From Naegleria gruberi (Eukaryota), in the NCBI GenBank assembly GCA_000004985.1, contig GG738856.1: a DNA stretch of 64,000 bases. One strand, 5' to 3'. The position numbers and the translations under genes were made by a program. The notes under the pieces were generated by a model. The model was not told the DNA's origin. It worked only from the letters and a program-made list of their open reading frames with translations, and ran no database searches. Shown here piece by piece: positions 1 through 32,305 of the stretch (within the stretch, counting starts at the first letter, position 1; every line of letters starts with the position of its first letter).

Positions 1-477
1 CCAAACCCAAACCCAAACCCAAACCCAAACCCAAACCCAAACCCAAACCCAAACCCAAACCCAAACCCAAACCCAAACCCAAACCCAAACCCAAACCCAA
101 ACCCAAACCCAAACCCAAACCCAAACCCAAACCCAAACCCAAACCCAAACCCAAACCCAAACCCAAACCCAAACCCAAACCCAAACCCAAACCCAAACCC
201 AAACCCAAACCCAAACCCAAACCCAAACCCAAACCCAAACCCAAACCCAAACCCAAACCCAAACCCAAACCCAAACCCAAACCCAAACCCAAACCCAAAC
301 CCAAACCCAAACCCAAACCCAAACCCAAACCCAAACCCAAACCCAAACCCAAACCCAAACCCAACCCAAACCCAAACCCAAACCCAAACCCAAACCCAAA
401 CCCAAACCCAAACCCAAACCCAAACCCAAACCCAAACCCAAACCCAAACCCAAACCCAAACCCAAACCCAAACCCAA
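1..477. repeat. Telomeric repeat array (CCCAAA)n, about 79 units, TTTGGG on the G-strand, with one degenerate unit near 361-366; this is the chromosome terminus
   Basis: A perfect 6-nt periodicity runs from base 1 and ends abruptly at about 477, where unique sequence begins. One unit near 361 lacks an A. Confidence 0.95.
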
Positions 478-1211: not shown

Positions 1212-3134
1212 ATGTTCCAACAAGTTCTTGTTAAAGGTCATCAACTGTTCGGGAACATTAAAAAAAATACCTCTAATTACATGATGAGCCATTTCACACA
1301 ACTGCCAGAAGAAATTATTGTGGAAATTTATAAATATGTATCCCATTCGGATATCATCCACAAAATGTCAAAAGTAGCTTCTGAGTGGAGAAGTGCTGTT
1401 TTTAAAGTAAAATCATTGGAACTTTTAGTTTCCGATAGAAAATTCACAACCGAAACATTACATTCTATATTTTACAGTCCACTTTTAAGTAATGTAGTTC
1501 TACTCTCTTTGGAAAATTGTGGATTGACTGATTCTGATATTAAAATGCTATGTGAAAGTTGTAATGACGGAAATTTTAGAAATTTAAAAGATTTATTGAT
1601 TGGAAGCAATCCTATTTCAATCAATTCGGTTATTGCCATTCATAATAGTGAATTGGTGAATATTTTAAAACAATTGTATTTTGAAGATACACTAATTACT
1701 GTAGATGGCATGAAAGAGTTCATTCATCAAGCTGAATCACATAAGAAAGTGGTATGGCTTTATTCGATTGGATATTTTTTAAGTATGGAAGGGAATAATG
1801 AAGAAAGTTTGGAATATTATAAAATGGCAGCCGAGTTGGGAGATGTAGATTCATTCTATGAACTGGGCGTAGCGTATAGCATGCAAGATATTGAGCAGAG
1901 TAAATATTGGCATGAAAAAGCTGTTAAACAAGGACATCAAAATGCTACAGCTTCTCTTGCAGAGATTTATCTTAAAAAGGGAGATTATAAGCAAGCTTTT
2001 GAGTTTTTTTCACAAGCAGGTGAAAAAGGATGTGCTTATTCAATGAAAAATATTGCGTTCATGTATGAAAATGGACAATATGTAGAACAAGATTATTCAA
2101 AATCAAAGAAATGGCTTCTGAAATCAACTGCATTTGGAGATATAGCTTTACACGAGTTGGGAATGAGATATTTGAATGGTAGCTTTGGATTTGAAAAAAA
2201 TTTGCAGAAAGCCATTAGATACTTTCAATCCCAATACCATCCAAGTGAGTCAAGCTATCAACTGGCACTCATGTATTTGGAAGGTAATGAATATATTCAA
2301 AAAGATGCTTTGAAAGCAATTGAAATATTGGAAAAAGCTTATGATACGAATGCAGCATTGCTACTAGGATCAATATATGCTAAGGGAGTCGAAGGAGTAG
2401 TTCCAAAAGATATTAAAAAGGCAATTGAAGCCTATTACAGAGCCTATAATAATCCAGAAGGAGCCCTACAGATTGGAATATTATATTTGGAAAAGTTCAA
2501 AACAGAGGAATCATATTTCCATTATATGGCTAAAGGAAAATTTGAAGAAGCAGCCAATGCAGGATCGGTAGAAGCCATGTTTAGGTTAGCAGAGCTTTTG
2601 AAAACAACTTTCAAAGATTTAGATGAATCAGACCGAAATTACTCTATGGCAGCTAGTAACAATCATGTTATAGCTCAATATCAACTAGCTCTGTATCACA
2701 AAGAGGGTATTAGAAATTTTGAGAAGAATCCTGAAAAGGCTAAATATTATTTTGAACAAGCAGCTAATCAAGGACATTCTGGAGCACAATATGAGTTGGC
2801 TGTAATATTATCCCCAGAAAATTACGAACAATCTTTAAAACTATTGAATTTGTCAATTGAGCAAGGCAACAGTTTTGCAATGGACATGTTGGCAAAATGG
2901 TACTTAAAAGGCACTGGTGTGGGAAAAGATGAAAAGAGAGCTGTCGAATTATTAGAAAAGTCATGTGAAATTGGAGGTTGCTCCAATAGCTATTATGAAC
3001 TCTCCTTACTTTATGAAGCTGGATTAGGTTGTGAGGTCAATAAGGAAAGAGCTGCAGAATTGAAAGGAAAGGCAATTGAATTGGGAGAAGCGAGATCTCT
3101 AATTGATCAATTCTTCTTTTTCGAAGATGCTTAA
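1212..3134 (+). CDS. F-box-like, LRR and Sel1-like repeat (SLR) protein, 640 aa
   Basis: The N-terminus LPEEIIVEIYKYV...WRSAV is F-box-like. There are at least 10 Sel1-type repeats of the form A..Y..AA..G...A...LG..Y..G. The ORF is continuous. Confidence 0.8.
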   Translation: MFQQVLVKGHQLFGNIKKNTSNYMMSHFTQLPEEIIVEIYKYVSHSDIIHKMSKVASEWRSAVFKVKSLELLVSDRKFTTETLHSIFYSPLLSNVVLLSLENCGLTDSDIKMLCESCNDGNFRNLKDLLIGSNPISINSVIAIHNSELVNILKQLYFEDTLITVDGMKEFIHQAESHKKVVWLYSIGYFLSMEGNNEESLEYYKMAAELGDVDSFYELGVAYSMQDIEQSKYWHEKAVKQGHQNATASLAEIYLKKGDYKQAFEFFSQAGEKGCAYSMKNIAFMYENGQYVEQDYSKSKKWLLKSTAFGDIALHELGMRYLNGSFGFEKNLQKAIRYFQSQYHPSESSYQLALMYLEGNEYIQKDALKAIEILEKAYDTNAALLLGSIYAKGVEGVVPKDIKKAIEAYYRAYNNPEGALQIGILYLEKFKTEESYFHYMAKGKFEEAANAGSVEAMFRLAELLKTTFKDLDESDRNYSMAASNNHVIAQYQLALYHKEGIRNFEKNPEKAKYYFEQAANQGHSGAQYELAVILSPENYEQSLKLLNLSIEQGNSFAMDMLAKWYLKGTGVGKDEKRAVELLEKSCEIGGCSNSYYELSLLYEAGLGCEVNKERAAELKGKAIELGEARSLIDQFFFFEDA

Positions 3135-14291: not shown

Positions 14292-17200
14292 GTGAACCAA
14301 TTCTTGGTTGTCTTCCAAACGCAAACAAGTCAACAACCACCAACAAGTGCACTCTACACTAACTCAAAGATTTCTTCATCAATTTTCATTATCCAATCTT
14401 TCATGATGTTATCATCATTATTCACCATCAATTTTAATAGGAAAACAATTCCTTCCAATCATCATCATCACCATGTAACTCTGCAGAGTGTGTTGAAAAG
14501 GTTTGGCTTTGCGTTGCTTGTTGTTGTACTTTTAATGATAATAACTCCCGCCTTTTCAACTTACACAACCGAAAAAACAAAACAAGAACATGATACGAAG
14601 GCTTTGCATAGGCTGGAAAAGTTTCATCAGCATCATCACGATGATTTAAATAACAATAATATTCTGCGAGTGGGAAGGAAAGGAAAGAATAGACTTTACC
14701 ATCATGATGAACGAAAGAAGAATCATCAAGGAAGAGGAGAAAAAGTTTTAAAACAACAACTTAGAAGTGTTTCCACTTCACAGGCTAGTGTTGTACCAAC
14801 ATTTTCATTACCTTCGGTGGTGAATTTATATGCCAATACGCCTCTGTATATTCCTATCATTTTGACTAACCAAGTAACATCAGGAACAACATTTGAATAT
14901 AGTTGGAAAGTTTACAACTCTACAAATGATATTACTTTAGCATCTGGAACTACACCAACAGTTTATATTGGAGAATATGATTTGGATCTTTTGAAAACAG
15001 TAACTTATTATCAGAATATTGTTGGATCAATATCATCACCTGTTTCTTCTTGGAATATTTATGTGGAGGTCACATCACGAGGAGATTATGGAATCATCAT
15101 TGCCCAATACAAAAAGACAATACCATTCAATTTGTACTTGTTGGGTGTACTTGCAACTATTGTGGGAGAGAATCAGGACCTGACCTTGATAACAGATCTG
15201 AAAACAAATCAAGTATTGAATGTTTCCATGTCGAAAATAACACCAAAAATTGAATATTATGATTCAGCAGTGAGTAAGATGGTAAAATCCAATGGACAAT
15301 GCTCGTGGACTTGTACCTACACTTTGATTTCTGGTTCAGTGAAGAATTGTTCCAACTTTGAAACATTTAGAACATTATCGAATAATAACAATTACTTACA
15401 AGTACTCATCCTTCTACTATGTCGAATCGGAAAAGTTTGAAATTCTTATACATAGCATACGTGTCAATGATTCAGTTCCAATCTTCCAAACAATTACATC
15501 CAACACTACCATGCAACAATATCATCCACCCAATCTTCCAATTACACTCACTCCAAATTTTGTCAATTACAACAATACTGTCAGAGTGGTGTTTTATTGG
15601 GAAGTTAATGGTTCACCATACCTCAAGCAAAACCTTACACTTGATTCCCTCTCTCCAAATAGCAAGTATGTGGCCAAGTGTGAAATTTACTTTCTGGGTA
15701 ATGTTCAGAGATACACATCAATGAGCTATACATTTTTCACAGCAAACAATATTACCAAGCCAAAATTCAATATTGTGACCAGTTCTGCTCTTGCATTTCA
15801 AACAAGAGTTCAAGTATCTGGCTATATTGGAGAATCAAGCAGAGGTCCACTTTGCATGACTGAAATCTTTGCAGAAACCACAAATTTTGGCAAAATCAGC
15901 TTGACCAATGGAAGACCTGTTTGCCTTCAATCGCTATTGCAAACCAGTACGGATGCAATTGCATTCCTTAGAATGCCACTCAGGAAAATCACTCTCTACG
16001 ATAATATCAAGCTCTCTTTTGTGGTAACAGATGGTATTGCACAGGAAACGTACTCTCTTACCACTTCTTCAAATCCTTCCACTATTTTGGATTACTTTTC
16101 ATCGTCCAATATTGTCAAATTAACAAGTAGTGTTTTAGACACGACATCAACTCTGTACGAAAACGATAGAACCTTGCTTCCTTCTCACATTGTTGTGGCT
16201 GCATCATTAATTATGAACTTTAAATCTTCTGCAGAAGAATCCAATTCAATGAATGTAGACTATTCAACACTGGCCTCTGGTTTAGGATCTTATCTATCGA
16301 GAATTTGTCCTTCTTCTTCAAACTATTCTCCATTGGAACAAAATTTGAATTGTATTGAAATAATTGGAAAATATGTATCAATTTCAGGTCTCACTACAAC
16401 ATTTGCTAGTACAACTCTCTCTCAGAGTATTAGTTCCAATATTGTTACATCTATATTTTATCAATTGAATCAACTCGTTTTCAATTCAATGAATGGACAA
16501 GGCACATTGCAAAATGGTGTGCTATTCCAAAAATTCTCCAGTGAAGGAGGTGAAACCTATGTCAGTCTCTTGATGGACATGCTACAAACAGCTTCCAGTT
16601 ATATTGCTCAAGATTATACTACAGTTCCAATCAATGGTACCTACGTTTCCATCAATAGTAATACTATAACTAGTACTATTTATGCAGTCTCCAAGATATT
16701 CCTCTCCAGTAGCTCCACTTCAACATTTAAATCATCAAGCTCACTCATTACCAAATTGGATTTATCTTCATTTCAATCAACAACATTATACTCACTCTCT
16801 TTGAATGGAGATGTTACTGTGCAGGTGCCACCTCTTTCATCTCTTCTTGGTAGTTTGACATCAAGCAGCTCAGTGGTCTTGTCACTTCAACTTTCACCTC
16901 AAAACAATGTCACAGATGCTGTCAATAGTACAATTATTTCTAGTAGAAAGGTTCAATTCCAGCTTTTGGATCCAAACACTGATAAGAAAATAGAGTTGAA
17001 AGATCTGAGTCAACCAATTACTCTTAAACTTCCAATCACCTATTCTTCCTTGTCAAATTCATCTCGTGACAGCTCCAAGTGTGTATTTTGGAGCGATTCT
17101 ACCAATGCATGGTCCAACACTGGTTGCGTTTTAAAACAAGCTACACAAAGTTATTTCTATTGTGAATGTAATCATACAACAACCTTTGCTGTGCTTTCTA

Positions 17201-19851
17201 CTACTCTCACAACTAGCTCAAATAATACTCAAATTCAAACAGCAGCATTCGATATGGTTCCACTTATTGTCATTTCCTCTGTAACTGGTGGTGTTATTCT
17301 AATCACTTTGGTTTTTTCTGGTGTTGTTCAAGCTTTTATTCATGTTTTGAAGAATGTTGACTCTGCTGAGTCAGGAGATTTATTCCTTCCAGCAGAATTC
17401 TTCCCAGTCAATGCCCAAATAGAAAAACCAAAAGAACCAGAAACAACAATAGAAGAGACAGAAAAGAAAGAAGAAAAAGAACCAAAGGTGAAGAAACGAT
17501 ACAAGGATCTTTCATTTGGTCTGAAAATTTTTGAATGTCTCAAAGAGTTTCACCCTGTTCTTGGTATTGTTTTTCCAAAGAAGTATTTCAAGAGTATTCA
17601 TATTAAGAGATTGGATCGTTTAATTATCCTAATGGATATTTTCATTACCACTAGTACTGTTAACGTTATTTTATTGTCAGTGAGCACTATTTCAAAAAAT
17701 TGGATATTCGTAATACCATCACTCATTTCGTTTGGCTGCTCTGTTATCAATCAAATACCAATTACATTATTATTTTGTAGGAAGCAAGCTATTTGGAAAG
17801 TTTGTGCCTATGGTTATAGCTGCGTGTTTGCGTTTGTTTGTTTGGTAATTTCTATTATTGCTAGTGCTGGAGTTTTTGTTTCCAATCAGTGGAATATGAA
17901 TATTTTGGACTGGCTGTATGCCACTATTCTAGGTGTTGCTTGGGACTTGATTGTTTTTAGAATTGTTTTGGCTTCCATTATTGCATTTTTGATTGAAGTT
18001 AAGGTTACTATTGACATGGGTATTGCAACATTCAGAAAAACTGATGAGGCAGAAAAAGAAGATCAACCATTACAAACAAAACGTATGGTAACTGTGCAAA
18101 ATAATGTAAGAATACCTATGCTATTTTCACAAAAGGAAAAGCCAAACATTCCTAAATTGAATCTCAAAGCAGTTGAAGGTGTTGCCACTCCAAAAGAAAA
18201 TCCTGTTAATGAGCTATCTTCAATGCATGCTTCGCCTACAGCAAGTGATACCACTTCCAGTAGTTCAGGTCTTGATTCCTATTTTTCACCACACAAAGCT
18301 AATCAACCAGCTGTGGAAGAAGCAAAAGAAACTTCTGCCAATGAGGAAGCCAAGACATCAAGTTCTGGTATGGAGCACTCGTCTGATAATTCAACTAGTA
18401 AGGAGGCAGAACAACAATGCATTACACCAGGATGTATTGTCGTTTTGGATTCTCCTGGCATTTCTCCAATATCTCCACTAATTCCAAAACAAGATCATGA
18501 TATGTCCTTTGTGGAGAAAGTCCAATTGAGAGATGAACTGAATATGAGCGAGGGTAAGGTTGATGAAGCCATCATCCCACCAGTGTTGGAGGATACCATG
18601 ATTATTGATGGAACTGAAAAGCAAGATAATGTGGAGGAAAGTACCAATGAACCTGTTCAAGATTCAGTTCCACAACAAGAAGAGGAAAAGCTAATAGAAC
18701 AAGCAGAGGATATCAATGAAGATTTGGAAATTGTGGAGCCAGCAATAGTTGAAACAGAACAAGTTCAACAACCTGTTGCTGAGGAAGTTTCTACAGAAGA
18801 GGTTCCAGAGGAAACAAGAGTATCTGATGAAGAAATTACCACCCCACATGAAGAGCCAGCAGTGGTCATTGTTGATGAAGTCACAAAGGAAGAAGTTGCA
18901 AATGTTGAACCAATTGTAACTGAATCTGTCCAAGAAACTACTCAATTGCCTGAAGTTGAACAAGTCACCGAAGCAACAATCGAACCAATAGAGCCAGTTA
19001 AGGAAGAATTACCAGAAATTGATACTACCAAGAAGAATCCTATCAAGATTTTGAAAGAAATTCTCAAAGAAAAGGATGTTCCTCCACCTGCTGCTGAAAG
19101 CCAAGAGCCAAAAGACAAATCAGAAAAGAATATTTTGGATTATATTGAACAAGTGACTGAACATGAAAAGAAGATTACATCTGAAAATTTGGAAAGTTTC
19201 ACATCAGAAATTCTTGAAAGATTATCTGGAAAATCAATTAGTGAAATTTTATTAATCTTGTCGGAGACTAAAGATCAACAATCAAGCAGCCAACAACAAT
19301 ACTCATCCCCACTTCGTACCAACTCACCAGTTGCAAGAAATGCTCTCCAAAAGAATACTCCAGGAAACAAATCAGCCAGAATGCTCAAGAGTGGTGGTAT
19401 TGAAATTGATAGATCAAGAAAACGTTCTCTCAGTTTCAACAAGTTGTATGGTATTGAAGAGGCTATGATCAAACCTCAAACAGATTTCTTTGATCAACTT
19501 CGTTTATATGTCAATCAAAATTATTCTGAAGAAGCCAAGGTTAAGGCATTGAATGAATTACTCTTCTTACAATGTATCTACCTCCACTATAAGATTATTT
19601 CAGTAACTCCTGAGGCAAGAAAGGAAATGGCAGAGCAAGTTGTTGCCACCTTTTTGAATGAAAAGGAACAATATCACATTAATATTGGTTTCTACAAGAG
19701 GGTACTTGCCTCATGTATTAGTGATGAAAATTTGAATGCCAACACATTTGAAAGAGCTTGTGAAATTATTGAAATTGCTTTAAAGCCTGTTATCAGCAAC
19801 TTTTTGAAGCATATTCAAGAAAAGCAAGCAAATGTAATGACAAGTGTTTAG
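14292..19851 (+). CDS. Large GPS/GAIN-motif multi-pass membrane receptor-like protein, which resembles adhesion-GPCR or polycystin. It is split into two overlapping ORFs by a frame break near 15343-15440.
   Basis: ORF 14292..15440 (signal or TM helix FGFALLVVVLLMIITPAFS, His-rich) and ORF 15358..19851 overlap in different frames. The extracellular S/T-rich N-glycosylated region ends in the GPS motif CVFWSDSTNAWSNTGCVLKQATQSYFYCECNHTTTFAVL. At least 5 TM helices follow, then an acidic E/P/V-rich tail. Confidence 0.7.
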
Positions 19852-19948: not shown

Positions 19949-22153
19949 TCAAACAAATTTATTGTAAAGATTGGATCTTTCAATTGTTTGTGCAGCCAAT
20001 TTCCAATCACTCAAGTCCAACGATAGGGCAACCTTACAATTGTTAACCATTTCACCTTTGTCCACAACGCCATCAACACTCTTTGTCAATACAATGGAAT
20101 ATAACAACTTTTGAATCTTTACACAACTCCAACCAAATAAATAGAACCACTTGTATGAGCACTTCCAATCAGAAATATAGTTATCCGAATCAGTTTCTTC
20201 CAATGGTGGTTCCCATTCTTGATAATATTGAATGAATTGTTTAAATCCTTCCGTTTGTAAAAAATTGGCTCCATCTCCACAAATTGTAATTGCAGTATCA
20301 ATGCCAAACGATGATTTGACAGCAGGTTGCCAATAATAATCTTCAGAAGTTAATTGATGAAGTGGTTTGCACGTTTCTGATAATTTGATTAATTCTCTCG
20401 GTTGTAAAAATTGAGAAATAACTCTCCAATCATAATACGAAAGTTTCACATTCTCATTAATCCTCAAAGATTTCTTAATTTCAACTGGAGGAGGTTCAAT
20501 AAACAGTTGCATTTCACTTCTTTCCTTTTCAAGTTTCATTTCAAATTCCTCTTTCGGATAACCAACAATAAATGCAAAATATTTCAACTTGTTCAAAACT
20601 TCCTTAACAGGAATCAAACTCGAAAAGATAAAATCCATAACATTAGATCTCCTTGAATTGTGAAGTTTTGCAATTTCTTCACACATTGGAATCCAAACAT
20701 TTGCTGAATTTGGCACATTTCCATAATAAATTTGTCTCATCAATTGATCTAAGTGTGTGAAAACTGGAATGACACTCATATTTCCATATTTCTTACAATC
20801 TTGACAGCAATATTCGTGAGCCATGTAGATTGTATCTCTAAATCTAGTAATTGTATCATTTTCGTACAAGTTTCTATTATATTCTGATAAATTCATGCAG
20901 AAAATGACATATTCGAAACCTTGTTCCATATATCGAGGATATTTCTTTCGTTCTGCTCTCTGACCAGCAACTAGACAGAAAGAAAGTTTGTGAGGTCCTA
21001 ATTGAAGTGTAAATTGTGAACATCCTGTCAATTTCTGTCTAGAAATGAAGAATAATCTCAAAATCAACTCTTCTTCCTCTTTCGTAAAACTATTCGAAGG
21101 TTTCTCCAATATTTCACACAAAGTTTCATGTGAAACTGATTTTAAAATTTCAATTCTATCAAAAATTGTTCCATGTTGTTGAGTTTGCAGCAGGTCATGA
21201 TATTTCCTGATTAATAATTTAACATCTTGCCTTTCAAAGAATAAAATTAAATTATTGTAAACTTGTTTTGTGATTAGTTTGAGAACAACTTTGCAATTCG
21301 AAGCCATTGGAATGTTATTCGAAAGTTTGTTCACTTGATCCACTGAAAATTCTCTATCCATTGGAATATCCTCAATTTCCTTTAAATCTTTCAAAATTTC
21401 CTGAATTATTTGTGGTTCAACATTGGCCAAAATTGGTGGAAGTTCATTAATGCACTGATTTGGAAATTTCAATTCGAATAACATTTGGTAGAATTGTTCT
21501 AACAAAATTATTGTATTGCTGAAAAAGAAATATAATGTAGAATAACTTTGATTTAAATCAAATGCTTGTTTTTCAATAACTTCAGGCTCCAAATTGTATC
21601 GAATAAGTTTCGACAAGGTCTTTCGTCCAGATTCTCCACTAGCAAGGAAAATAAATCTAATATGACTCTGATACACTTGCAATGCACTCGATTGCACTGA
21701 AAGTCTAGGTGAAGGAATCCCCGTAGAAAATCTTGGAGAAAGTGTTGGCGAAAGTTGACCAAGAAACCTTGGACTCATTGGCATTAATTGAACAGGAGAA
21801 AGGTTTCCAATACTACTATGTGAATTTCCACTACAACAATCACCAGATGCAACACTTCCTTCAACGCTGTTGAATGATTCGGCCGAGTGTAAAGTTGTTA
21901 AATTATTATTCGAAATTTCTCTTCTTCGGGGAGACCGCTGGTTTCGAATTTGATAAAAAGTTTCATGATCACTTCCACTGGCATTACTCTCTTGAATGGA
22001 TCTCAATTTAAGTAGTGCAACCTTCTTTTTAATGGAAGAAATCATGATTGACTTTTTTTTTGAAGATTTTCTCATACTTTCAATACGAAACTCTTCCAAA
22101 TTAGTTTCCATTCCATTCCTGAGGATTACACATATTGGCGGCATTTTCTTCAA
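19949..22153 (-). CDS. Heterotrimeric G-protein alpha-subunit homolog with degenerate nucleotide-binding motifs and a C-terminal extension bearing an F-box-like motif, 734 aa
   Basis: G-alpha signature blocks: FLASGESGRKT aligns with GAGESGKST; LTGCSQFTLQLGPHKLSFCLVAGQRAERKKY with TTGI...FDVGGQRSERKKW; VIFCMNLSEYNRNLYEND with IIFCVALSDYD; VIPVFTHLDQL with ILFLNKKDLF. The C-terminus contains LSYYDWRVISQFLQPRELIKLSETCKPL. Confidence 0.7.
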   Translation of the reverse strand: MKKMPPICVILRNGMETNLEEFRIESMRKSSKKKSIMISSIKKKVALLKLRSIQESNASGSDHETFYQIRNQRSPRRREISNNNLTTLHSAESFNSVEGSVASGDCCSGNSHSSIGNLSPVQLMPMSPRFLGQLSPTLSPRFSTGIPSPRLSVQSSALQVYQSHIRFIFLASGESGRKTLSKLIRYNLEPEVIEKQAFDLNQSYSTLYFFFSNTIILLEQFYQMLFELKFPNQCINELPPILANVEPQIIQEILKDLKEIEDIPMDREFSVDQVNKLSNNIPMASNCKVVLKLITKQVYNNLILFFERQDVKLLIRKYHDLLQTQQHGTIFDRIEILKSVSHETLCEILEKPSNSFTKEEEELILRLFFISRQKLTGCSQFTLQLGPHKLSFCLVAGQRAERKKYPRYMEQGFEYVIFCMNLSEYNRNLYENDTITRFRDTIYMAHEYCCQDCKKYGNMSVIPVFTHLDQLMRQIYYGNVPNSANVWIPMCEEIAKLHNSRRSNVMDFIFSSLIPVKEVLNKLKYFAFIVGYPKEEFEMKLEKERSEMQLFIEPPPVEIKKSLRINENVKLSYYDWRVISQFLQPRELIKLSETCKPLHQLTSEDYYWQPAVKSSFGIDTAITICGDGANFLQTEGFKQFIQYYQEWEPPLEETDSDNYISDWKCSYKWFYLFGWSCVKIQKLLYSIVLTKSVDGVVDKGEMVNNCKVALSLDLSDWKLAAQTIERSNLYNKFV

Positions 22154-22458: not shown

Positions 22459-23535
22459 TTATCCAATAATCTTGTCTTTCAAAGCGAGTCCTCCAATGAA
22501 GCCAACTCCATAGAATAAGAAGAGTGGATTGAATGCACCTAGGTTAGTAACAAATGGACCTGGACAAACACCAACAAGTCCCCAACCAATACCAAAGAGA
22601 GCTGCACCAGTAACAAGTTTCCAATCAACAACAGTAGATGTTGGGATATGTTGCTTACAACCCATACAAGTGAGTTCAGAACGAGAGGCACTTGGTACAA
22701 CGTACATGTTGAATACATACAGGTTTGGAAGAATAGCTCCCAAAGCAACACAAACAAGTGAAGGATCATAATTGTTTCCACCAAAATCAAAGAATCCAAG
22801 AACTTTCAATGGATTAGTCATTCCACTAAGTGCCAATCCAAGTCCAAATACAAATCCGTGCATAAATGGAAGATAATAGTCCAATTTTTGTTTGGTTGGT
22901 TCACTTAAATTCCAAATATTCATAATTATCAAAGCATAGGCAGAGAGAATCATAGCCAACAAGGACAATAAAGTCAAAGCATGTGAAGTTGTTGGATATT
23001 GAACGAATGGCAATAATGATGTATCCACTCCAACATTGACAATATTTCTAGAAACATAATCGGCACTTCCACCAAACAAAACCATCATCATGGTCACACC
23101 ACAGAAAACCATTGTGGCCACAAAACTTCTCTTGGACAAACGAGCCAAACCACAAATCATGTGTCCAGATGTGCAACCAGAACCAAGTTGTGTTCCAAAT
23201 CCAACAAACAATCCAGCCAATAAATAGAGTCCAACAGTTGATGGTGATGATAACAAGGAGAAGGCACTCGAAATTTTCATGAAATTATTAGGAGCTAAAT
23301 TCAAGGAGAAGGCAAACAATCCGGCCACTATCAGACCACAAAGATACAAAATCTTGTGAATCCATTCGGTATGATGATGAGTTGTAGCTTTGGCTGTTCC
23401 ATCAAAACATCCTCTCACAACACCACCAACAATACCCGACATGCCTGATATTCTTCCTTGAAGATAGGCATAGGCTCCAACAGATGCACCAATTAATAAG
23501 CCTCCAATAAGTGATTCAAATGGAGTAAATACCAT
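22459..23535 (-). CDS. YeeE/YedE-family putative thiosulfate or sulfur-compound transporter (TsuA-like), 358 aa, multi-pass membrane protein
   Basis: Two repeated sulfur-transport motifs: [27 protein letters not shown] and [20 protein letters not shown]. About 9 hydrophobic helices. The ORF is continuous. Confidence 0.75.
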
Positions 23536-24408: not shown

Positions 24409-27400
24409 ATGATGAGGAAACAAGAAAGTTTGATTAAAAAAACAGGGAATTTTGGTGATTTTTCTAATGCTGCCACAGCATCTATATCGGAAAATTCGGG
24501 ACAGAGGATGACACCTAGCCAATCGAAGGTTTATCCAAGTTTAATGGCAAGGAGTTCACCATTATCTTCATCTCCATACTGTTCTTCCAAATCATCAACA
24601 TCTGCATCCTGTAAATTATCCAATCAAATCACCAACACAAACAAGAATGTAAATAATCAAGATTCTGAAAATCAACAACAAAAAAGTATTGAAAGTGTAA
24701 AAAGTTCTTTTCACACTAGAACTCATTCAATACTTTCCCCTCAATGTAAAAACATTCAACCATCACAGTCAACTAGCTCATCAAAAACAAATGAAGGAAC
24801 AGTAACAAAACATGTAAAGTTTGTTATTCCAGAACGTAAAATTCCAAAACCAGAAACAAAAAAGGATATAACAACTACAGTTCCAAAGTTGGCAAGGGAA
24901 AAACAAAATCATCGTTACAATATTAATTTTTTTAATAGACCAACAATAACTCGAGATGGTCAAACAGTTCAACCTCCCCAAACCACTCAACCTTCTCCTT
25001 CATCTTTACAAAATAAGAGAAGTTTTGAAAATTTCAAATCTAGCTCTTCAAAATACGAGACATCAAAAAAACAAAAGAAAGACATCAATATGATAAACTT
25101 TCAAAAGAATTTATTTGAAATTCAGAAAGAGTTGTCAGAACAACCTTTCATCTCAAATGCCAACCCACTGACACCATCTCCAGAAAGCAATGGTCACTCA
25201 TCAGTATTTAACAACAACAATACTGTTCAGAAGGAGGAAAATCTCAAAATGCAAACCCCTCAATACTCTAACACCAATTTCATGATACTATCAGACTCTC
25301 TAGAAAGTATTACTATAGCAGAGGATTTATTAACTATCGACGATTCAATAGTGGAAGAAGCTATAAGCAAGGTCTTTAATTCAAAGCTTGGAAGATCTTT
25401 TTCATCAAGTACCAAAGAGAAGTACCTTCGTCATCTAATCAATCCCGAGGAAATTTCAAGGCTGGGAATTAAAGATTTATTTGGAGAATATTACCCCTCA
25501 GTGGGATATTTTACATTGAAAGATTCCAAGCCAATTTTCAAGCAAGTCAGCGATGGTTCTTTGACAAACATTACTGAAGGAACAGGGAAATCAATATATT
25601 ACTCCTACTCTAGATTAGCAAGATTGTTAATGAGTTTGGATTTAGGACGAGCCATGATGTTTGTCATCTTTTCTGAAGATGATTGGGATCATGAGGAAAA
25701 ACGAGTTTTAATTGAAAAAGCTTCTATAGATGGATTTAAGCATTCCTCTATCGAGTACAAATTCTTTGGTACAAGTAATTCTGGTATTAATGGGCATACA
25801 GCTCTGTTCATTGACACTCGATTGAATTTTGCTAAAATACATGACCTGCTGGGAGATTTTAGTGAGTGTGCCAAAGCTGGACCAAGGAAAGCTTTCAGTC
25901 GTATTGCTCTTGCATTAGGAAAAAGTTTTCAGAGTTTAGTCGAGTTGAAAAAGGAAGAATTATGGGTTCTGTACGATGAAGAGGATTATCCAGGTGTTGG
26001 TATGTTTTTTATTTCATGAAATTCAATAATTCTTACTTGAAAAGATGGTGCAGGCTTCATGCATGAGGATTACTTTCAAGATATTTTGAGAAATACAATT
26101 TGCACACCTTATTTTGAAACAAGGAAAAACACAACTGAAGCAGTATTTATGGATTGTAAAATTGAGGAAATTGTTGCAATGCAATTCAGAGCATTGGGAA
26201 TGAAGGGCGTCTTTCAGTCTATTCCCGATGAATATTGGAAGGAACTTCAAACGAGGCATGGCTTTCCAGATACTGTAAAATGCGTGGCAAGACCTTCAAT
26301 GATCAAATTTATGGGAAATTCGGAAGTTTATAGACATTTTGATGTTTTAAATGTTTCTAGAATTCAAGGAGGATCCATTAATAGAACATTCATGTCATGT
26401 ATGCTTAGAAGAACAACTAATAAGGAGGCCATGCAACAACTTTTCGTTAAAATGTTGGATGAGTACATCAAGAGTGAATCCAATATTCTAGATACAAAAT
26501 TCCTCTACAACTCTCTCCTTTCGAATGAAGTTTTCGATAATGGAGATTCCGTTTATAGGACAATCAAGAATTTACTCTTGGCAGGATTTGGAATGGAAAA
26601 TCCATTTGTTTACAAGTACATTAAGAAGAGAATCAAGGCAAGATTTCAATCCATGATTGATAACAAGCTGTGTCTCAAGATGAAATCAAAATTCTCAGTA
26701 ACTCTGATGGGAGTCATAGATGAGAGTGGTGAGCTAAATGCGGATGAGGTTTATATTCCCTGCCTCAAATTGCAAGAGCAATTAATGAGGGATTATTACA
26801 AATTGAAAGAGGTGATTGTCTATAGACATCCACTTGCTTACGAAGGAGATATTGCCAAGTTGAAATTGAGAAAAGATCCATGTAATGAATTTCTAGCATC
26901 TAGATCTAATGTCATTGTATTCCCAAAGGTTTTCAAAGAGAAATCTCCTCATCAATATCTAGCAGGAGGTGATTTAGGTATGTTTTTATTTTGAATTTTT
27001 CAAATTGACTCAATTCTTTAGATGGTGATGCTTATGAAGTTGTTTTTGATATGGAAATTTTGAAATTATTCGATAAGCATCCAAAACCAATTGATTACGA
27101 TGAAGGGAAGCAATCCAGTGGAGCAACCTCACAATCTATTCAACCTGTTACCAAGTTACAACCTTGTGATATTATCAGGGAACATGTAAAATGTTTTATT
27201 CAAAAACATACTCATACAGGTCTCCTTTTCTACTTTAATACTATTGCCAGAGACTCTGACGATATCAAATTAAAGGTTGATCTAGCCAAAGCATATTCCC
27301 ATTCTATAGATGCTATGAAGGGCTTTGAGCAGGATTTTAACAAACTCATTGAAAGAGCACGAGCTTTACCAGTTCCATACTGGTATCAACAATGGAAGTC

Positions 27401-27887
27401 GGTAAAGGTTTCAAAATGGGCACCAACTGATGCAAACATTACAATATTTGAAAATTTAATGTTAAATAAGGTTGTACATGCCTATCAGAAAATTGAATTT
27501 AAAAAGCCAGTAGAGATTGATCCTGAATTAATTGTTGAAACGCCAAAGGACACAGTCATGTGGAAGCTTGATTTTGATAACACGTATCAAAAATGGAACG
27601 AGTATTGGAAATCTAAAAAGAGAGTATTCGAGTCAACAACACAAGTAGAATTTACATTCAATGATAGATTCTTCAATGAACGGCTCAATTCAATTATGGC
27701 CAACACGATCTCTCACCAAAAGAACAAGTACCATAGCGATGAACCAGATTGGCACCAATTATTTTGTGGAAGTACTGTTGGAAAACAACTCGTAGCAAAA
27801 GCAAGTTATTGGATGCAACTTGCCTACGAGAAGGAAAAGGAACTTGCACAAAAGAAAAGAAGGGAGAGTTCAAGAAATCAATTCTAA
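24409..27887 (+). CDS. RNA-dependent RNA polymerase (eukaryotic RDR/QDE-1 family) with three exons and a low-complexity N-terminal region
   Basis: ORFs 24409..26019, 26059..26994 and 27051..27887 are colinear. They are separated by GTATGT...AG introns of about 45-50 nt near 26000-26044 and 26978-27021. Splicing the second intron reconstitutes the catalytic motif YLAGGDL|DGDAYEVVF (DLDGD). Confidence 0.85.
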
Positions 27888-31624: not shown

Positions 31625-32305
31625 TTAAATAATATTACATGATTTTCCATTGATTTCTTCTTTTGGAATTTTCACATTCGAATCCGTATTTAATGAATTA
31701 AATCTCGCCAATAACTTCAATAATTCATAAAACATTTCATTGACATTTTCACCTGTTTTGGAAGAAGTTTCGAAAAAGAGTTTCAGTTCATGTTTCGTCG
31801 ATAATTCCAGACCTTCTTCGTACGAAACTTGACGTGAAGGCGAATCTGATTTGGTTCCAACTAGAATTATTTCACATTCCACTTTTGGATTTAATTTCGA
31901 AATTTCAATCCACCTTTCCACATTCTCAAAACTTGATCTATTCGAAATGTCATAACAAATAATTATTCCTCTAACTTTTTTAAAATAAACATCTGGAATA
32001 TTAGAAGGTCCATAAAAGGAGCTCCTGAACTCGAATTCTACTAACACTGATTCAAATCTATTCGAAACTTACACTTTCGTCAGAATACCACAAACGAAAT
32101 CATGCTTGTAAAAAATTGTTTTACTGGTCATGGGCAATGGATTATCGTATTTCGTATCAGGTGTCATATATCGATTCGTGTTTAATCTTTCAAGTAGTCT
32201 TATCTTGCCACTTTTTTTATCTCCGACCAAAATTACTGTTTCGAATAATTTAATTAATTAATTTTCGAATAAATAGATGAAATTCAAACACTAACTTTGA
32301 TGCAT
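31625..32305 (-). CDS. Divergent Ras-superfamily small GTPase-like protein, multi-exon, with degenerate G1 and G3 motifs and a C-terminal CaaX box (CNII)
   Basis: The 3' exon 31625..32047 encodes EFRSSFYG...IIICYDISNRSSFENVERWI...ILVGTKSD...ETSSKTGENV...CNII, a Rab/Ras-like core. Upstream, the ATG at about 32305 and a 60-nt intron give MHQIILVGDKKSGKIRLL, a P-loop-like GDKKSGKI. The exon 2 to exon 3 junction near 32046-32092 is unresolved. Confidence 0.55.

What the first reader, a model, noticed from the sequence alone, without database searches (positions are those of the whole stretch)
22459..23535. Bacterial-type YeeE/YedE (TsuA-like) sulfur transporter gene embedded among eukaryotic genes: a candidate horizontal acquisition
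The 358-aa multi-pass protein carries the duplicated G-x-x-x-G...R.SG and GSGCTSGH motifs of the YeeE/YedE thiosulfate-uptake family, which is overwhelmingly prokaryotic. The gene has host-like AT content and no introns. It is flanked by a G-alpha homolog and an RdRP gene, so it is not contamination. It is subtelomeric, about 22 kb from the telomere, a region where laterally acquired or lineage-specific genes often accumulate.
Basis: partly seen in the sequence, partly recalled or inferred. Interest (0 to 1): 0.6.

Follow-up and report, generated by a model that had tools for sequence, protein, structure and literature searches.

The report
Eukaryotic fused YeeE-family sulfur transporter gene
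This Naegleria gruberi gene encodes a membrane channel of the YeeE/YedE sulfur-transporter family, but it belongs to a fused form found across many eukaryotes, not to a recent bacterial import, so it is a fairly ordinary and poorly studied gene.

Summary

The horizontal-transfer interpretation is not supported.
- Every named close homologue is eukaryotic: N. fowleri, fungi, ciliates, diatoms, Cercozoa, an amoebozoan and an acoel. All share one architecture: two halves joined by a linker with an extra transmembrane helix.
- All 79 closest bacterial loci carry the halves as two adjacent genes, the PmpAB/YedE1E2 type. 46 of 80 loci also hold a persulfide-dioxygenase-like gene.
- In NJ bootstraps and leave-relatives-out profile tests, Naegleria nests among eukaryotes (+45 bits for the eukaryote profile).
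- GC3 matches the host.
- A metagenomic relative keeps local gene order.

It is not a TsuA orthologue. It scores 20.6 bits against a 400-bit cutoff, lacks TsuA's first cysteine, and has no TsuB nearby.

The likely function is passage of thiosulfate or sulfane sulfur past conserved C121, C128 and C324. This is inferred, not shown.

The half order appears swapped relative to TsuA, which suggests an independent fusion.

The parts
22459..23535 (-). Complete CDS with stop codon: a 358-aa single-chain YeeE/YedE-superfamily membrane protein of the PmpAB/YedE1E2 type, fused.
23056..23535 (-). N-half, aa 1-160: four TM helices plus two re-entrant loops. This is the PF04143-type half and carries GRISGMSG and [20 protein letters not shown].
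   Evidence: Pfam aa 5-146 maps to model positions 176-306 of 310. hhalign to the TsuA C-terminal half gives prob 94.6%, E 6.6e-8. Helices come from the AF2 model.
23443..23535 (-). First 31 codons (aa 1-31, the first TM helix). They are missing from the public 327-aa gene model.
   Evidence: BLASTP to P0001 starts at aa 32. G11, G27 and G31 are invariant or nearly invariant in homologues, which align from residue 1.
23173..23175 (-). Codon of Cys121 in GSGC. It corresponds to the essential loop cysteines of TsuA and YedE1E2.
   Evidence: Conserved in 174 of 174 eukaryotic and bacterial sequences. Aligns to the GGC motifs of StYeeE. Essentiality is from the literature (PMC10812762, PMC11582611).
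23152..23154 (-). Codon of Cys128 in GHMICG. This is an additional conserved cysteine specific to this half-type.
   Evidence: Conserved in 85 of 85 bacterial and 78 of 89 eukaryotic sequences.
22909..22989 (-). Central linker TM helix, aa 183-209, inside the aa 161-213 linker. It is absent from the bacterial split pairs.
   Evidence: AF2 helix H183-209. Kyte-Doolittle 19-residue mean of 2.41. A linker with a hydrophobic segment is present in all named eukaryotic homologues. Bacterial halves are separate ORFs.
22462..22896 (-). C-half, aa 214-358: four TM helices plus two re-entrant loops. This is the DUF6691-type half and carries [13 protein letters not shown].
   Evidence: Pfam PF20398, 89.8 bits. 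AF2 helices.
22564..22566 (-). Codon of Cys324 in GVCPGP, the conserved loop cysteine of the second half.
   Evidence: Conserved in 174 of 174 sequences.
15358..19851 (+). Neighbouring gene for a large protein with a GPS motif. Together with ORF 14292-15440 it forms a conserved local gene order with the transporter gene.
   Evidence: Pfam GPS, 46.5 bits. tblastn to L082 gives 32% identity over 1585 aa, E 1e-175, in the same relative order and orientation.
19949..22153 (-). Downstream neighbour, a G-alpha homologue. The ORF as listed starts at TTG and the true start was not determined.
   Evidence: Pfam PF00503, 106.4 bits.
24409..27887 (+). Upstream, divergently oriented neighbour. Three consecutive ORFs are probably exons of one RNA-dependent RNA polymerase gene.
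   Evidence: PF05183 scores 115.6 bits on 26059-26994.
1..476 (.). Telomeric repeat (CCCAAA)n that marks the chromosome end.
   Evidence: Read directly from the sequence.

Best explanation
**What it is.** The gene encodes a vertically inherited eukaryotic member of the YeeE/YedE sulfur-transporter superfamily. It is a single-chain version of the bacterial two-gene PmpA/PmpB (YedE1/YedE2) half-transporter.

**Architecture.**
- A PF04143-type half (aa 1-160) and a DUF6691-type half (aa 214-358) each contribute four TM helices and two re-entrant loops.
- They are joined by a roughly 55-aa linker whose extra TM helix (aa 183-209) lets the two halves sit in opposite orientations.
- The result is the 9-TM hourglass fold known from TsuA.

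**Likely mechanism (inferred by homology).** A small sulfur species, either thiosulfate or sulfane/zero-valent sulfur, passes through the central constriction. Passage would use transient interactions with the loop cysteines C121 and C324, and possibly C128. A soluble thiol or sulfurtransferase on the other side would take it up.

**What it is not.** It is not a TsuA orthologue and not a recent bacterial acquisition.

**Shown:** family membership, predicted fold, cysteine conservation, the eukaryotic fused clade, and split bacterial relatives linked to persulfide-dioxygenase and BigR-like genes.

**Inferred:** substrate, direction of transport, membrane location and antiparallel topology.
For: - **Family HMMs:** both halves pass the curated cutoffs.
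- **Predicted structure:** AF2 gives pLDDT 94.8 and pTM 0.93, with 9 long and 4 short helices.
- **Bacterial relatives are split:** all 79 best bacterial loci carry two adjacent ORFs in the same order as the two halves. 62 of 79 pairs directly abut.
- **Bacterial gene context:** a persulfide-dioxygenase/Blh-like gene lies in 46 of 80 loci and a BigR-like repressor in 32 of 80.
- **Eukaryotic homologues:** all named ones are fused and have a hydrophobic linker segment. Unnamed fused hits on long contigs sit next to eukaryotic genes such as ribosomal S6e, condensin Cnd3, actin, PDCD2 and RWD/Impact.
- **Phylogeny:** N. gruberi, N. fowleri and P0002 group at 99.5% bootstrap. The sister group is bacteria-free in 200 of 200 replicates. 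At least 50 of 89 eukaryotic sequences join before any bacterium in 92% of replicates.
- **Profile test with relatives left out:** +44.6 bits for the eukaryote profile. Bacterial controls give -24 to -81 bits.
- **Age at this locus:** host-like GC3 and conserved local gene order with L082.
- **Cysteines:** C121 and C324 are invariant in 174 of 174 sequences. C128 is conserved in 163 of 174.
- **Topology:** the K+R bias is opposite in the two halves of the bacterial pairs.
- **Literature:** PmpA and PmpB match the C- and N-terminal halves of YeeE and lack its central helix (PMC11582611). Cupriavidus YedE1E2 imports zero-valent sulfur and both of its cysteines are essential (PMC10812762). TsuA transports thiosulfate (PMC11073785).
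Against: - No functional data exist for any eukaryotic member in the papers searched.
- The window holds no partner gene. tblastn found no TusA/TsuB-like or persulfide-dioxygenase-like sequence. The rest of the genome could not be searched.
- Deep nodes of the NJ tree are poorly supported. The clade of 86 bacteria-free sequences has 14% bootstrap, from 272 columns. A single origin of the eukaryotic clade therefore rests mainly on the shared architecture and the profile tests.
- The eukaryotic distribution is patchy, so eukaryote-to-eukaryote transfer cannot be excluded.
- Expression of the N. gruberi gene was not tested.
- There is no synteny with the N. fowleri contig.
- The K+R topology argument uses small counts and includes conserved, possibly functional arginines.
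Confidence: 0.78

Rival explanations
1. Recent or lineage-specific horizontal transfer of a bacterial YeeE/TsuA gene into a Naegleria subtelomere.
For: - The superfamily is mostly prokaryotic.
- The gene has no introns and lies 22 kb from a telomere.
- Bacterial pairs reach 35% identity, E 2e-45.
Against: - N. fowleri has a 53%-identical orthologue.
- The closest hits at 44-58% identity are eukaryotic where context could be checked.
- The fused architecture with a linker TM is shared with fungi, ciliates, diatoms, Cercozoa, Amoebozoa and an acoel. It is absent from all 79 bacterial loci.
- Bootstrap and profile tests place the gene among eukaryotes.
- GC3 equals the host value.
- Local gene order is conserved with L082.
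Confidence: 0.03
2. One old bacterium-to-eukaryote transfer, with fusion, followed by eukaryote-to-eukaryote spread. [quoted passage not shown]
For: - The distribution is patchy. Named hits include only one animal, an acoel, and no plants.
- Relationships inside the eukaryotic group are poorly resolved and do not obviously follow the species tree.
Against: - At least four supergroups are represented.
- The P-S/T cap before the linker helix is shared by Discoba, Amoebozoa and fungi. Both scenarios can explain that.
Confidence: 0.3
3. It is a functional TsuA orthologue: a thiosulfate importer for sulfur assimilation that works with a TsuB/YeeD-like partner.
For: - It has the same fold.
- The GGC loop motifs align.
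- TsuA is the only structurally and biochemically defined relative (PMC11073785).
Against: - NCBIfam TsuA models give 20.6 bits against a 400-bit cutoff.
- BLASTP to E. coli TsuA is not significant.
- The first of TsuA's three essential cysteines has no counterpart.
- There is no TsuB-like ORF in the window.
- The nearest bacterial relatives are PmpAB-type pairs linked to persulfide dioxygenase, not to cysteine synthesis genes.
Confidence: 0.12
4. It exports sulfite or thiosulfate produced by sulfide detoxification. This is the role first proposed for the BigR-operon pair in plant-associated bacteria. Alternatively, it handles selenium as YedE/FdhT does.
For: - Bacterial pairs co-occur with Blh-like dioxygenase and the BigR repressor.
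- A bacterial N-half weakly hits the YedE/FdhT model at 22.8 bits.
Against: - The only direct assay of a PmpAB-type pair found import of zero-valent sulfur and no export (PMC10812762).
- The N. gruberi protein does not hit the selenium YedE model.
- Many fungi carry the gene, which argues against a selenium-specific role. That last point rests on general knowledge, not on a test here.
Confidence: 0.2

Closest known systems
PmpA/PmpB (Serratia sp. ATCC 39006), also called YedE1/YedE2 (Cupriavidus pinatubonensis, Sinorhizobium meliloti): two-gene half-transporters of the YeeE/YedE family
   Same: - These are the closest sequence relatives outside eukaryotes, at 28-36% identity with E down to 2e-45.
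- The half types and their order match: the PF04143-type half comes first, then the DUF6691-type half.
- The invariant loop cysteines are the same.
- TsuA's first cysteine is likewise absent.
   Different: - The bacterial halves are two polypeptides of about 140 aa with no central helix. Here they are one 358-aa chain with a linker TM helix.
- Bacterial pairs usually sit beside persulfide-dioxygenase or BigR genes. No such neighbour exists in the window.
TsuA/YeeE thiosulfate transporter (E. coli b2013; Spirochaeta thermophila, PDB 6LEO, 6LEP, 8J4C, 8K1R)
   Same: - The cysteine-bearing G-rich loops align.
   Different: - There is almost no pairwise sequence similarity, and it fails the TsuA equivalog models.
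- It has two of TsuA's three cysteines, plus a different extra one, C128.
- Its N-half corresponds to TsuA's C-half, so the half order is probably swapped.
- No adjacent TsuB was found.
SoxT1A/SoxT1B (Hyphomicrobium denitrificans), YeeE-like sulfur importers for oxidation and signalling
   Same: They belong to the same superfamily and are full-length 9-TM proteins that move sulfane sulfur past conserved cysteines (PMC11582611).
   Different: - SoxT proteins have the three TsuA-type cysteines and sit in sox/shdr clusters (PMC11582611).
- No direct comparison was made here.
Annotated eukaryotic 'YeeE/YedE family' or 'UPF0394 membrane' proteins (Tetrahymena, Paramecium, Yarrowia, Umbelopsis, Coprinopsis and others)
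   Same: - They share the fused architecture and both Pfam domains, at 30-37% identity.
- They share the eukaryote-specific profile signal.
   Different: - They are only database annotations. No functional study turned up in the searches.
- One fungal member was detected in a Paracoccidioides vesicle proteome (PMC12565617).

Membership tests
YeeE/YedE superfamily (Pfam PF04143 Sulf_transp and PF20398 DUF6691; COG2391) | The family HMMs score above their curated thresholds. | tested here: met
   PF04143 gives 31.0 bits against a cutoff of 27, covering only the C-terminal half of the model. PF20398 gives 89.8 bits against 27.
YeeE/YedE superfamily (Pfam PF04143 Sulf_transp and PF20398 DUF6691; COG2391) | An hourglass fold of 9 TM helices with four re-entrant loops. 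| tested here: met
   [not shown]
YeeE/YedE superfamily (Pfam PF04143 Sulf_transp and PF20398 DUF6691; COG2391) | Conserved cysteines at the tips of the G-rich loops. | tested here: met
   C121 and C324 are invariant in 174 of 174 sequences. C121 aligns to the GGC motifs of StYeeE.
TsuA/YeeE thiosulfate transporter (orthologue) | The NCBIfam equivalog models NF052577 and NF041049 score above their cutoffs. | tested here: not met
   NF052577 gives 20.6 bits against 400. NF041049 gives no hit.
TsuA/YeeE thiosulfate transporter (orthologue) | Three conserved essential cysteines, C22, C91 and C293 in S. thermophila. | tested here: not met
   There is no cysteine in either first loop (aa 27-34, aa 235-247). 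Only the two G-rich-loop cysteines are present.
TsuA/YeeE thiosulfate transporter (orthologue) | An adjacent TsuB/YeeD (TusA-like) partner gene. | tested here: not met
   tblastn of E. coli TsuB against the 64-kb window finds nothing at E <= 10. The rest of the genome was not searchable.
TsuA/YeeE thiosulfate transporter (orthologue) | Thiosulfate uptake activity. | not testable with these tools
   This needs a transport or complementation assay.
PmpAB/YedE1E2-type half-transporters | One PF04143-type half and one DUF6691-type half, each with four TM helices and a loop cysteine, in that gene order. | tested here: met
   Domain order is and helices. All 79 bacterial loci have the same order.
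PmpAB/YedE1E2-type half-transporters | The two halves are separate polypeptides of about 130-145 aa. | tested here: not met
   The halves form one continuous 358-aa ORF with a 55-aa linker that includes a TM helix.
PmpAB/YedE1E2-type half-transporters | Genomic association with persulfide dioxygenase or an ArsR/BigR-type regulator. | tested here: not met
   46 of 80 and 32 of 80 bacterial loci have them. None is present in the window. Operon-style linkage is not expected in a eukaryote.
PmpAB/YedE1E2-type half-transporters | Import of zero-valent sulfur that depends on the two cysteines. | not testable with these tools
   This is known only for Cupriavidus and Sinorhizobium YedE1E2 (PMC10812762).
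Eukaryotic fused YeeE/YedE clade | A single chain with a hydrophobic linker helix between the halves. | tested here: met
   The linker is 57 aa with a Kyte-Doolittle 19-residue mean of 2.41. All named eukaryotes have linkers of 38-94 aa with a hydrophobic segment.
Eukaryotic fused YeeE/YedE clade | Groups with eukaryotic rather than bacterial sequences. | tested here: met
   Bootstrap analysis. Leave-relatives-out profile test gives +44.6 bits. Deep NJ support is low.

The most novel reading that the evidence does not exclude
The eukaryotic proteins would be an independent, order-swapped re-invention of the 9-TM YeeE architecture. On this reading, a PmpA-type half (homologous to the C-terminal half of TsuA) was fused in front of a PmpB/DUF6691-type half through a newly acquired linker helix. 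TsuA and SoxT carry the halves in the opposite order. That would make this a second, convergent case of an antiparallel half-transporter pair becoming a single chain. The clade would also carry an extra conserved cysteine, C128, that the papers read here do not describe.
Probability: 0.5. Interest if true: 0.45.

Novelty: new member of a known kind. Interest (0 to 1): 0.28.

Why it matters
- **It removes a false lead.** This is not a subtelomeric bacterial acquisition. It is a member of an old, widespread and unstudied eukaryotic branch of the YeeE/YedE sulfur-transporter superfamily.
- **It corrects an annotation.** The public N. gruberi gene model lacks its first transmembrane helix.
- **It points to experiments.** Genetically tractable eukaryotes such as Tetrahymena, Yarrowia and Coprinopsis carry a single-chain PmpAB-type transporter. 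Its substrate, whether thiosulfate, polysulfide or sulfite, and its membrane location could be tested there. This bears on how eukaryotes move reactive sulfur species.
- **It may inform membrane-protein evolution.** If the swapped half order holds, the family becomes a clean example of repeated fusion of antiparallel half-transporters.

Tried and rejected
- **Fold library:** Foldseek against afdb50, which would have listed named structural relatives, was not available.
- **Internal duplication:** profile comparison of the two halves gave no significant match. The duplication is visible only in the predicted structure and in short motifs.
- **Assigning the DUF6691 half:** hhalign to TsuA halves was inconclusive, 16.7% against 6.9%.
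- **PmpA or PmpB identity:** cysteine position and protein mass could not assign the bacterial halves. The original Serratia paper was not held.
- **Partner genes in the window:** tblastn found no TusA/TsuB-like or persulfide-dioxygenase-like sequence.
- **Synteny with N. fowleri:** none was found on contig L083.
- **Literature:** searches on eukaryotic YeeE function and Naegleria sulfide metabolism found nothing specific. One search failed on term syntax.
- **Short bacterial 'fusions':** seven short 'fused' database proteins of 266-300 aa, with linkers of 32 aa or less and no linker helix, were considered as possible bacterial donors.
  - They group with bacterial pairs. The four put through the profile test prefer the bacterial profile.
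  - One lies on a bacterial contig whose glyS gene is itself split. They may be read-through or assembly artefacts.
- **Not run:** the exhaustive representative-protein search. It returns no names or context and would not change the verdict.

Full report
**1. Observation**

The ORF at 22459-23535 on the minus strand is real. It runs 358 codons from ATG to stop without interruption.

The window begins with about 476 bases of (CCCAAA)n telomeric repeat. The gene is therefore about 22 kb from a chromosome end.

The organism is Naegleria gruberi. A public 'predicted protein' of that species is 100% identical over residues 32-358. That 327-aa public model starts at an internal methionine and omits the first transmembrane helix. 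Homologues align from residue 1, and G11, G27 and G31 are invariant or nearly so. The 358-aa reading is therefore the correct one.

- A G-alpha homologue lies downstream (PF00503, 106 bits).
- An RNA-dependent RNA polymerase lies upstream on the other strand (PF05183, 115.6 bits).

Third-position GC is 0.281, against 0.291 +/- 0.032 for 28 long ORFs of the window.

**2. Family and fold**

Pfam places residues 5-146 in PF04143 (Sulf_transp) at 31 bits, against a cutoff of 27. The match covers only model positions 176-306 of 310. Residues 223-352 fall in PF20398 (DUF6691) at 89.8 bits.

NCBIfam's TsuA equivalog scores 20.6 bits against a cutoff of 400. BLASTP against E. coli TsuA gives 22.7 bits, E 0.011.

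AlphaFold2 with a 96-sequence alignment gives pLDDT 94.8 and pTM 0.93. The model has nine long helices and four short loop helices.

The protein therefore has the TsuA fold and belongs to the superfamily. It is not a TsuA orthologue.

**3. The closest bacterial relatives are split gene pairs**

A scan of one genome per bacterial and archaeal species returned 80 best loci, nearly all Proteobacteria.
- In all 79 loci that hold both halves, the halves are separate adjacent ORFs of about 140 aa each. They occur in the same order as in the Naegleria protein. In 62 of 79 pairs they directly abut.
- None has the central helix.
- 46 of 80 loci carry a persulfide-dioxygenase/Blh-like gene and 32 of 80 carry a BigR-like repressor.

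This is the PmpA/PmpB, or YedE1/YedE2, type. The literature says the following about it:
- Li et al. [quoted passage not shown] Each has four helices and one conserved cysteine, equivalent to C91 and C293. The central helix is missing.
- PMC10812762 showed that Cupriavidus YedE1E2 imports zero-valent sulfur. Both of its cysteines are essential, and 83.5% of genomes with the pair also hold a persulfide dioxygenase.

**4. The eukaryotic relatives**

All named proteins among the 120 best hits are eukaryotic:
- N. fowleri (53% identity).
- Fungi from three phyla.
- Paramecium and Tetrahymena.
- The diatoms Cylindrotheca and Attheya.
- A cercozoan.
- The amoebozoan Ceratiomyxa.
- The acoel Convolutriloba.

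Five unnamed fused hits (P0002, P0010, P0038, P0065, P0071) lie next to plainly eukaryotic genes. These neighbours include ribosomal protein S6e, condensin Cnd3, PDCD2, RWD/Impact and actin.

Every named eukaryotic homologue has a linker of 38-94 residues with a hydrophobic segment. In Naegleria, the two unnamed EukProt proteins, Ceratiomyxa and several fungi, that segment is preceded by a shared P-S/T cap.

Seven short 'fused' database proteins behave differently. They are 266-300 aa with linkers of 32 aa or less and no linker helix.
- They group with the bacterial pairs.
- The four put through the profile test prefer the bacterial profile.
- The one checked lies on a bacterial contig whose glyS gene is itself split. 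It may be an assembly or gene-calling artefact.

**5. Phylogenetic placement**

The tree is neighbour-joining on 272 trimmed columns of the concatenated halves. It includes 96 single-chain proteins and 78 bacterial pairs.
- N. gruberi, N. fowleri and P0002 group at 99.5% bootstrap.
- All named eukaryotes fall in one clade of 86 sequences with no bacteria. Deep support for that clade is low, at 14%.

Two more robust tests were made.
- **Rooted bootstraps.** With the tree rooted on a bacterium, the sister group of the Naegleria clade contained no bacterial sequence in 200 of 200 replicates. In 92% of replicates at least 50 of 89 eukaryotic sequences joined Naegleria before any bacterial one.
- **Profile test.** Close relatives of the test sequence were left out. 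The N. gruberi halves then scored 44.6 bits higher on the eukaryote profile than on the bacterial profile. Fourteen other eukaryotes gave +24 to +51 bits. Bacterial controls gave -24 to -81 bits.

**6. Locus history**

A metagenomic relative, P0002, is 57% identical and sits on contig L082. It keeps the same local order and orientation as the window:
- A homologue of ORF 14292-15440.
- A large GPS-motif protein, 32% identical over 1585 aa, E 1e-175.
- One intervening gene: G-alpha in the window, ribosomal S6e in L082.
- The transporter gene.

The gene was therefore at this locus before those two lineages split. The N. fowleri contig shows no such synteny.

**7. Mechanism**

C121 (GSGC) and C324 (GVCPGP) are invariant in 174 of 174 sequences. 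C128 is conserved in 85 of 85 bacterial and 78 of 89 eukaryotic sequences. Neither first loop holds a cysteine, so TsuA's first essential cysteine has no counterpart here.

In the bacterial pairs the K+R bias is opposite in the two halves. The N-half is richer on the re-entrant-loop side and the C-half on the other side. This fits an antiparallel heterodimer. It also explains why a single chain needs an odd number of linker helices.

My committed reading is a passive pathway for a small sulfur species, either thiosulfate or sulfane sulfur, past the loop cysteines. A thiol or sulfurtransferase on the far side would take it up. The basis is homology to TsuA and YedE1E2. Substrate, direction and membrane are all inferred.

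The N-terminus starts directly with the conserved first helix, as in bacteria. I see no cleavable targeting peptide, though I ran no predictor.

**8. Order of the halves**

Several comparisons match the Naegleria and bacterial N-half to the C-terminal half of full-length TsuA:
- Pfam, NCBIfam and the PDB profile search.
- hhalign against a 112-sequence TsuA alignment gives 94.6% probability, E 6.6e-8 over 125 columns for the TsuA C-half. It gives 33.5% for the TsuA N-half.

The DUF6691 half could not be assigned, at 16.7% against 6.9%.

Li et al. assign PmpA to the C-half and PmpB to the N-half. Taken together, this suggests the eukaryotic chain carries the halves in the opposite order to TsuA. 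That would make it an independent fusion. I rate this at about 0.5.

**9. Verdict**

Family assignment at superfamily level is right. 'TsuA-like' is true only for the fold.

YeeE-like proteins in eukaryotes are already noted in the literature (abstract of PMC11073785) and in database annotations. This is therefore a new member of a known kind, of modest interest.

What this work adds:
- The corrected gene model.
- The link to PmpAB-type pairs.
- The linker helix as a shared eukaryotic character.
- The possible swapped half order.

Noticed in passing
window 23443-23535 (-): The public N. gruberi gene model (327 aa) starts at Met32. It omits the conserved first transmembrane helix that the 358-aa ORF encodes.
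   Followed up: yes
window 23152-23154 (-), Cys128: The PF04143-type half carries a second, highly conserved cysteine (GH-x-x-C-G, seven residues after C121). It is present in 85 of 85 bacterial and 78 of 89 eukaryotic sequences. The papers read describe only one conserved cysteine per half.
   Followed up: partly
window 14292-19851 (+) and L082 4347-9338: A large GPS-motif protein and the ORF before it keep their order and orientation next to the transporter gene in a metagenomic relative. The gene between them differs: G-alpha in the window, ribosomal S6e in L082.
   Followed up: partly
window 1-476: The telomeric repeat (CCCAAA)n has one irregular unit near position 361. Coding-looking sequence begins almost immediately after it, at about 481.
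   Followed up: no
window 1212-3134 (+): The first large ORF next to the telomere has a borderline F-box match (20.5 bits) and strong Sel1 repeats (173 bits). Sel1-like sequence also appears at 481-900.
   Followed up: no
window 19949-22153 (-): The G-alpha homologue is unusually long at 734 aa. The G-alpha domain covers only residues 161-478. A weak F-box-like match lies at residues 581-609, below the Pfam cutoff.
   Followed up: no
window 24409-27887 (+): Three consecutive same-strand ORFs are separated by 39 and 56 nt. Only the middle one hits the RdRP family. They are probably one gene with short introns or a long divergent N-terminal region.
   Followed up: no
L001-L080 (for example L001 5421-5426): In 62 of 79 bacterial loci the second half-gene begins directly after the stop codon of the first, so the two are in the same frame. 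Loss of a single stop codon would fuse them without a linker helix.
   Followed up: partly
L085 5001-5831 (P0099), and P0028, P0034, P0066, P0086, P0102, P0113: Short 'fused' proteins of 266-300 aa with no linker helix group with the bacterial pairs. The P0099 contig is bacterial and its glyS gene is called as two pieces. These fusions may be sequencing or gene-calling artefacts.
   Followed up: partly
P0093 (ENA contig of 128 kb): A 536-aa homologue combines several methyltransferase Pfam domains with the two transporter halves.
   Followed up: no
window 31625-32047 (-): A Ras-family small GTPase ORF matches only the C-terminal two thirds of the domain. An upstream exon is probably missing from the ORF call.
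   Followed up: no
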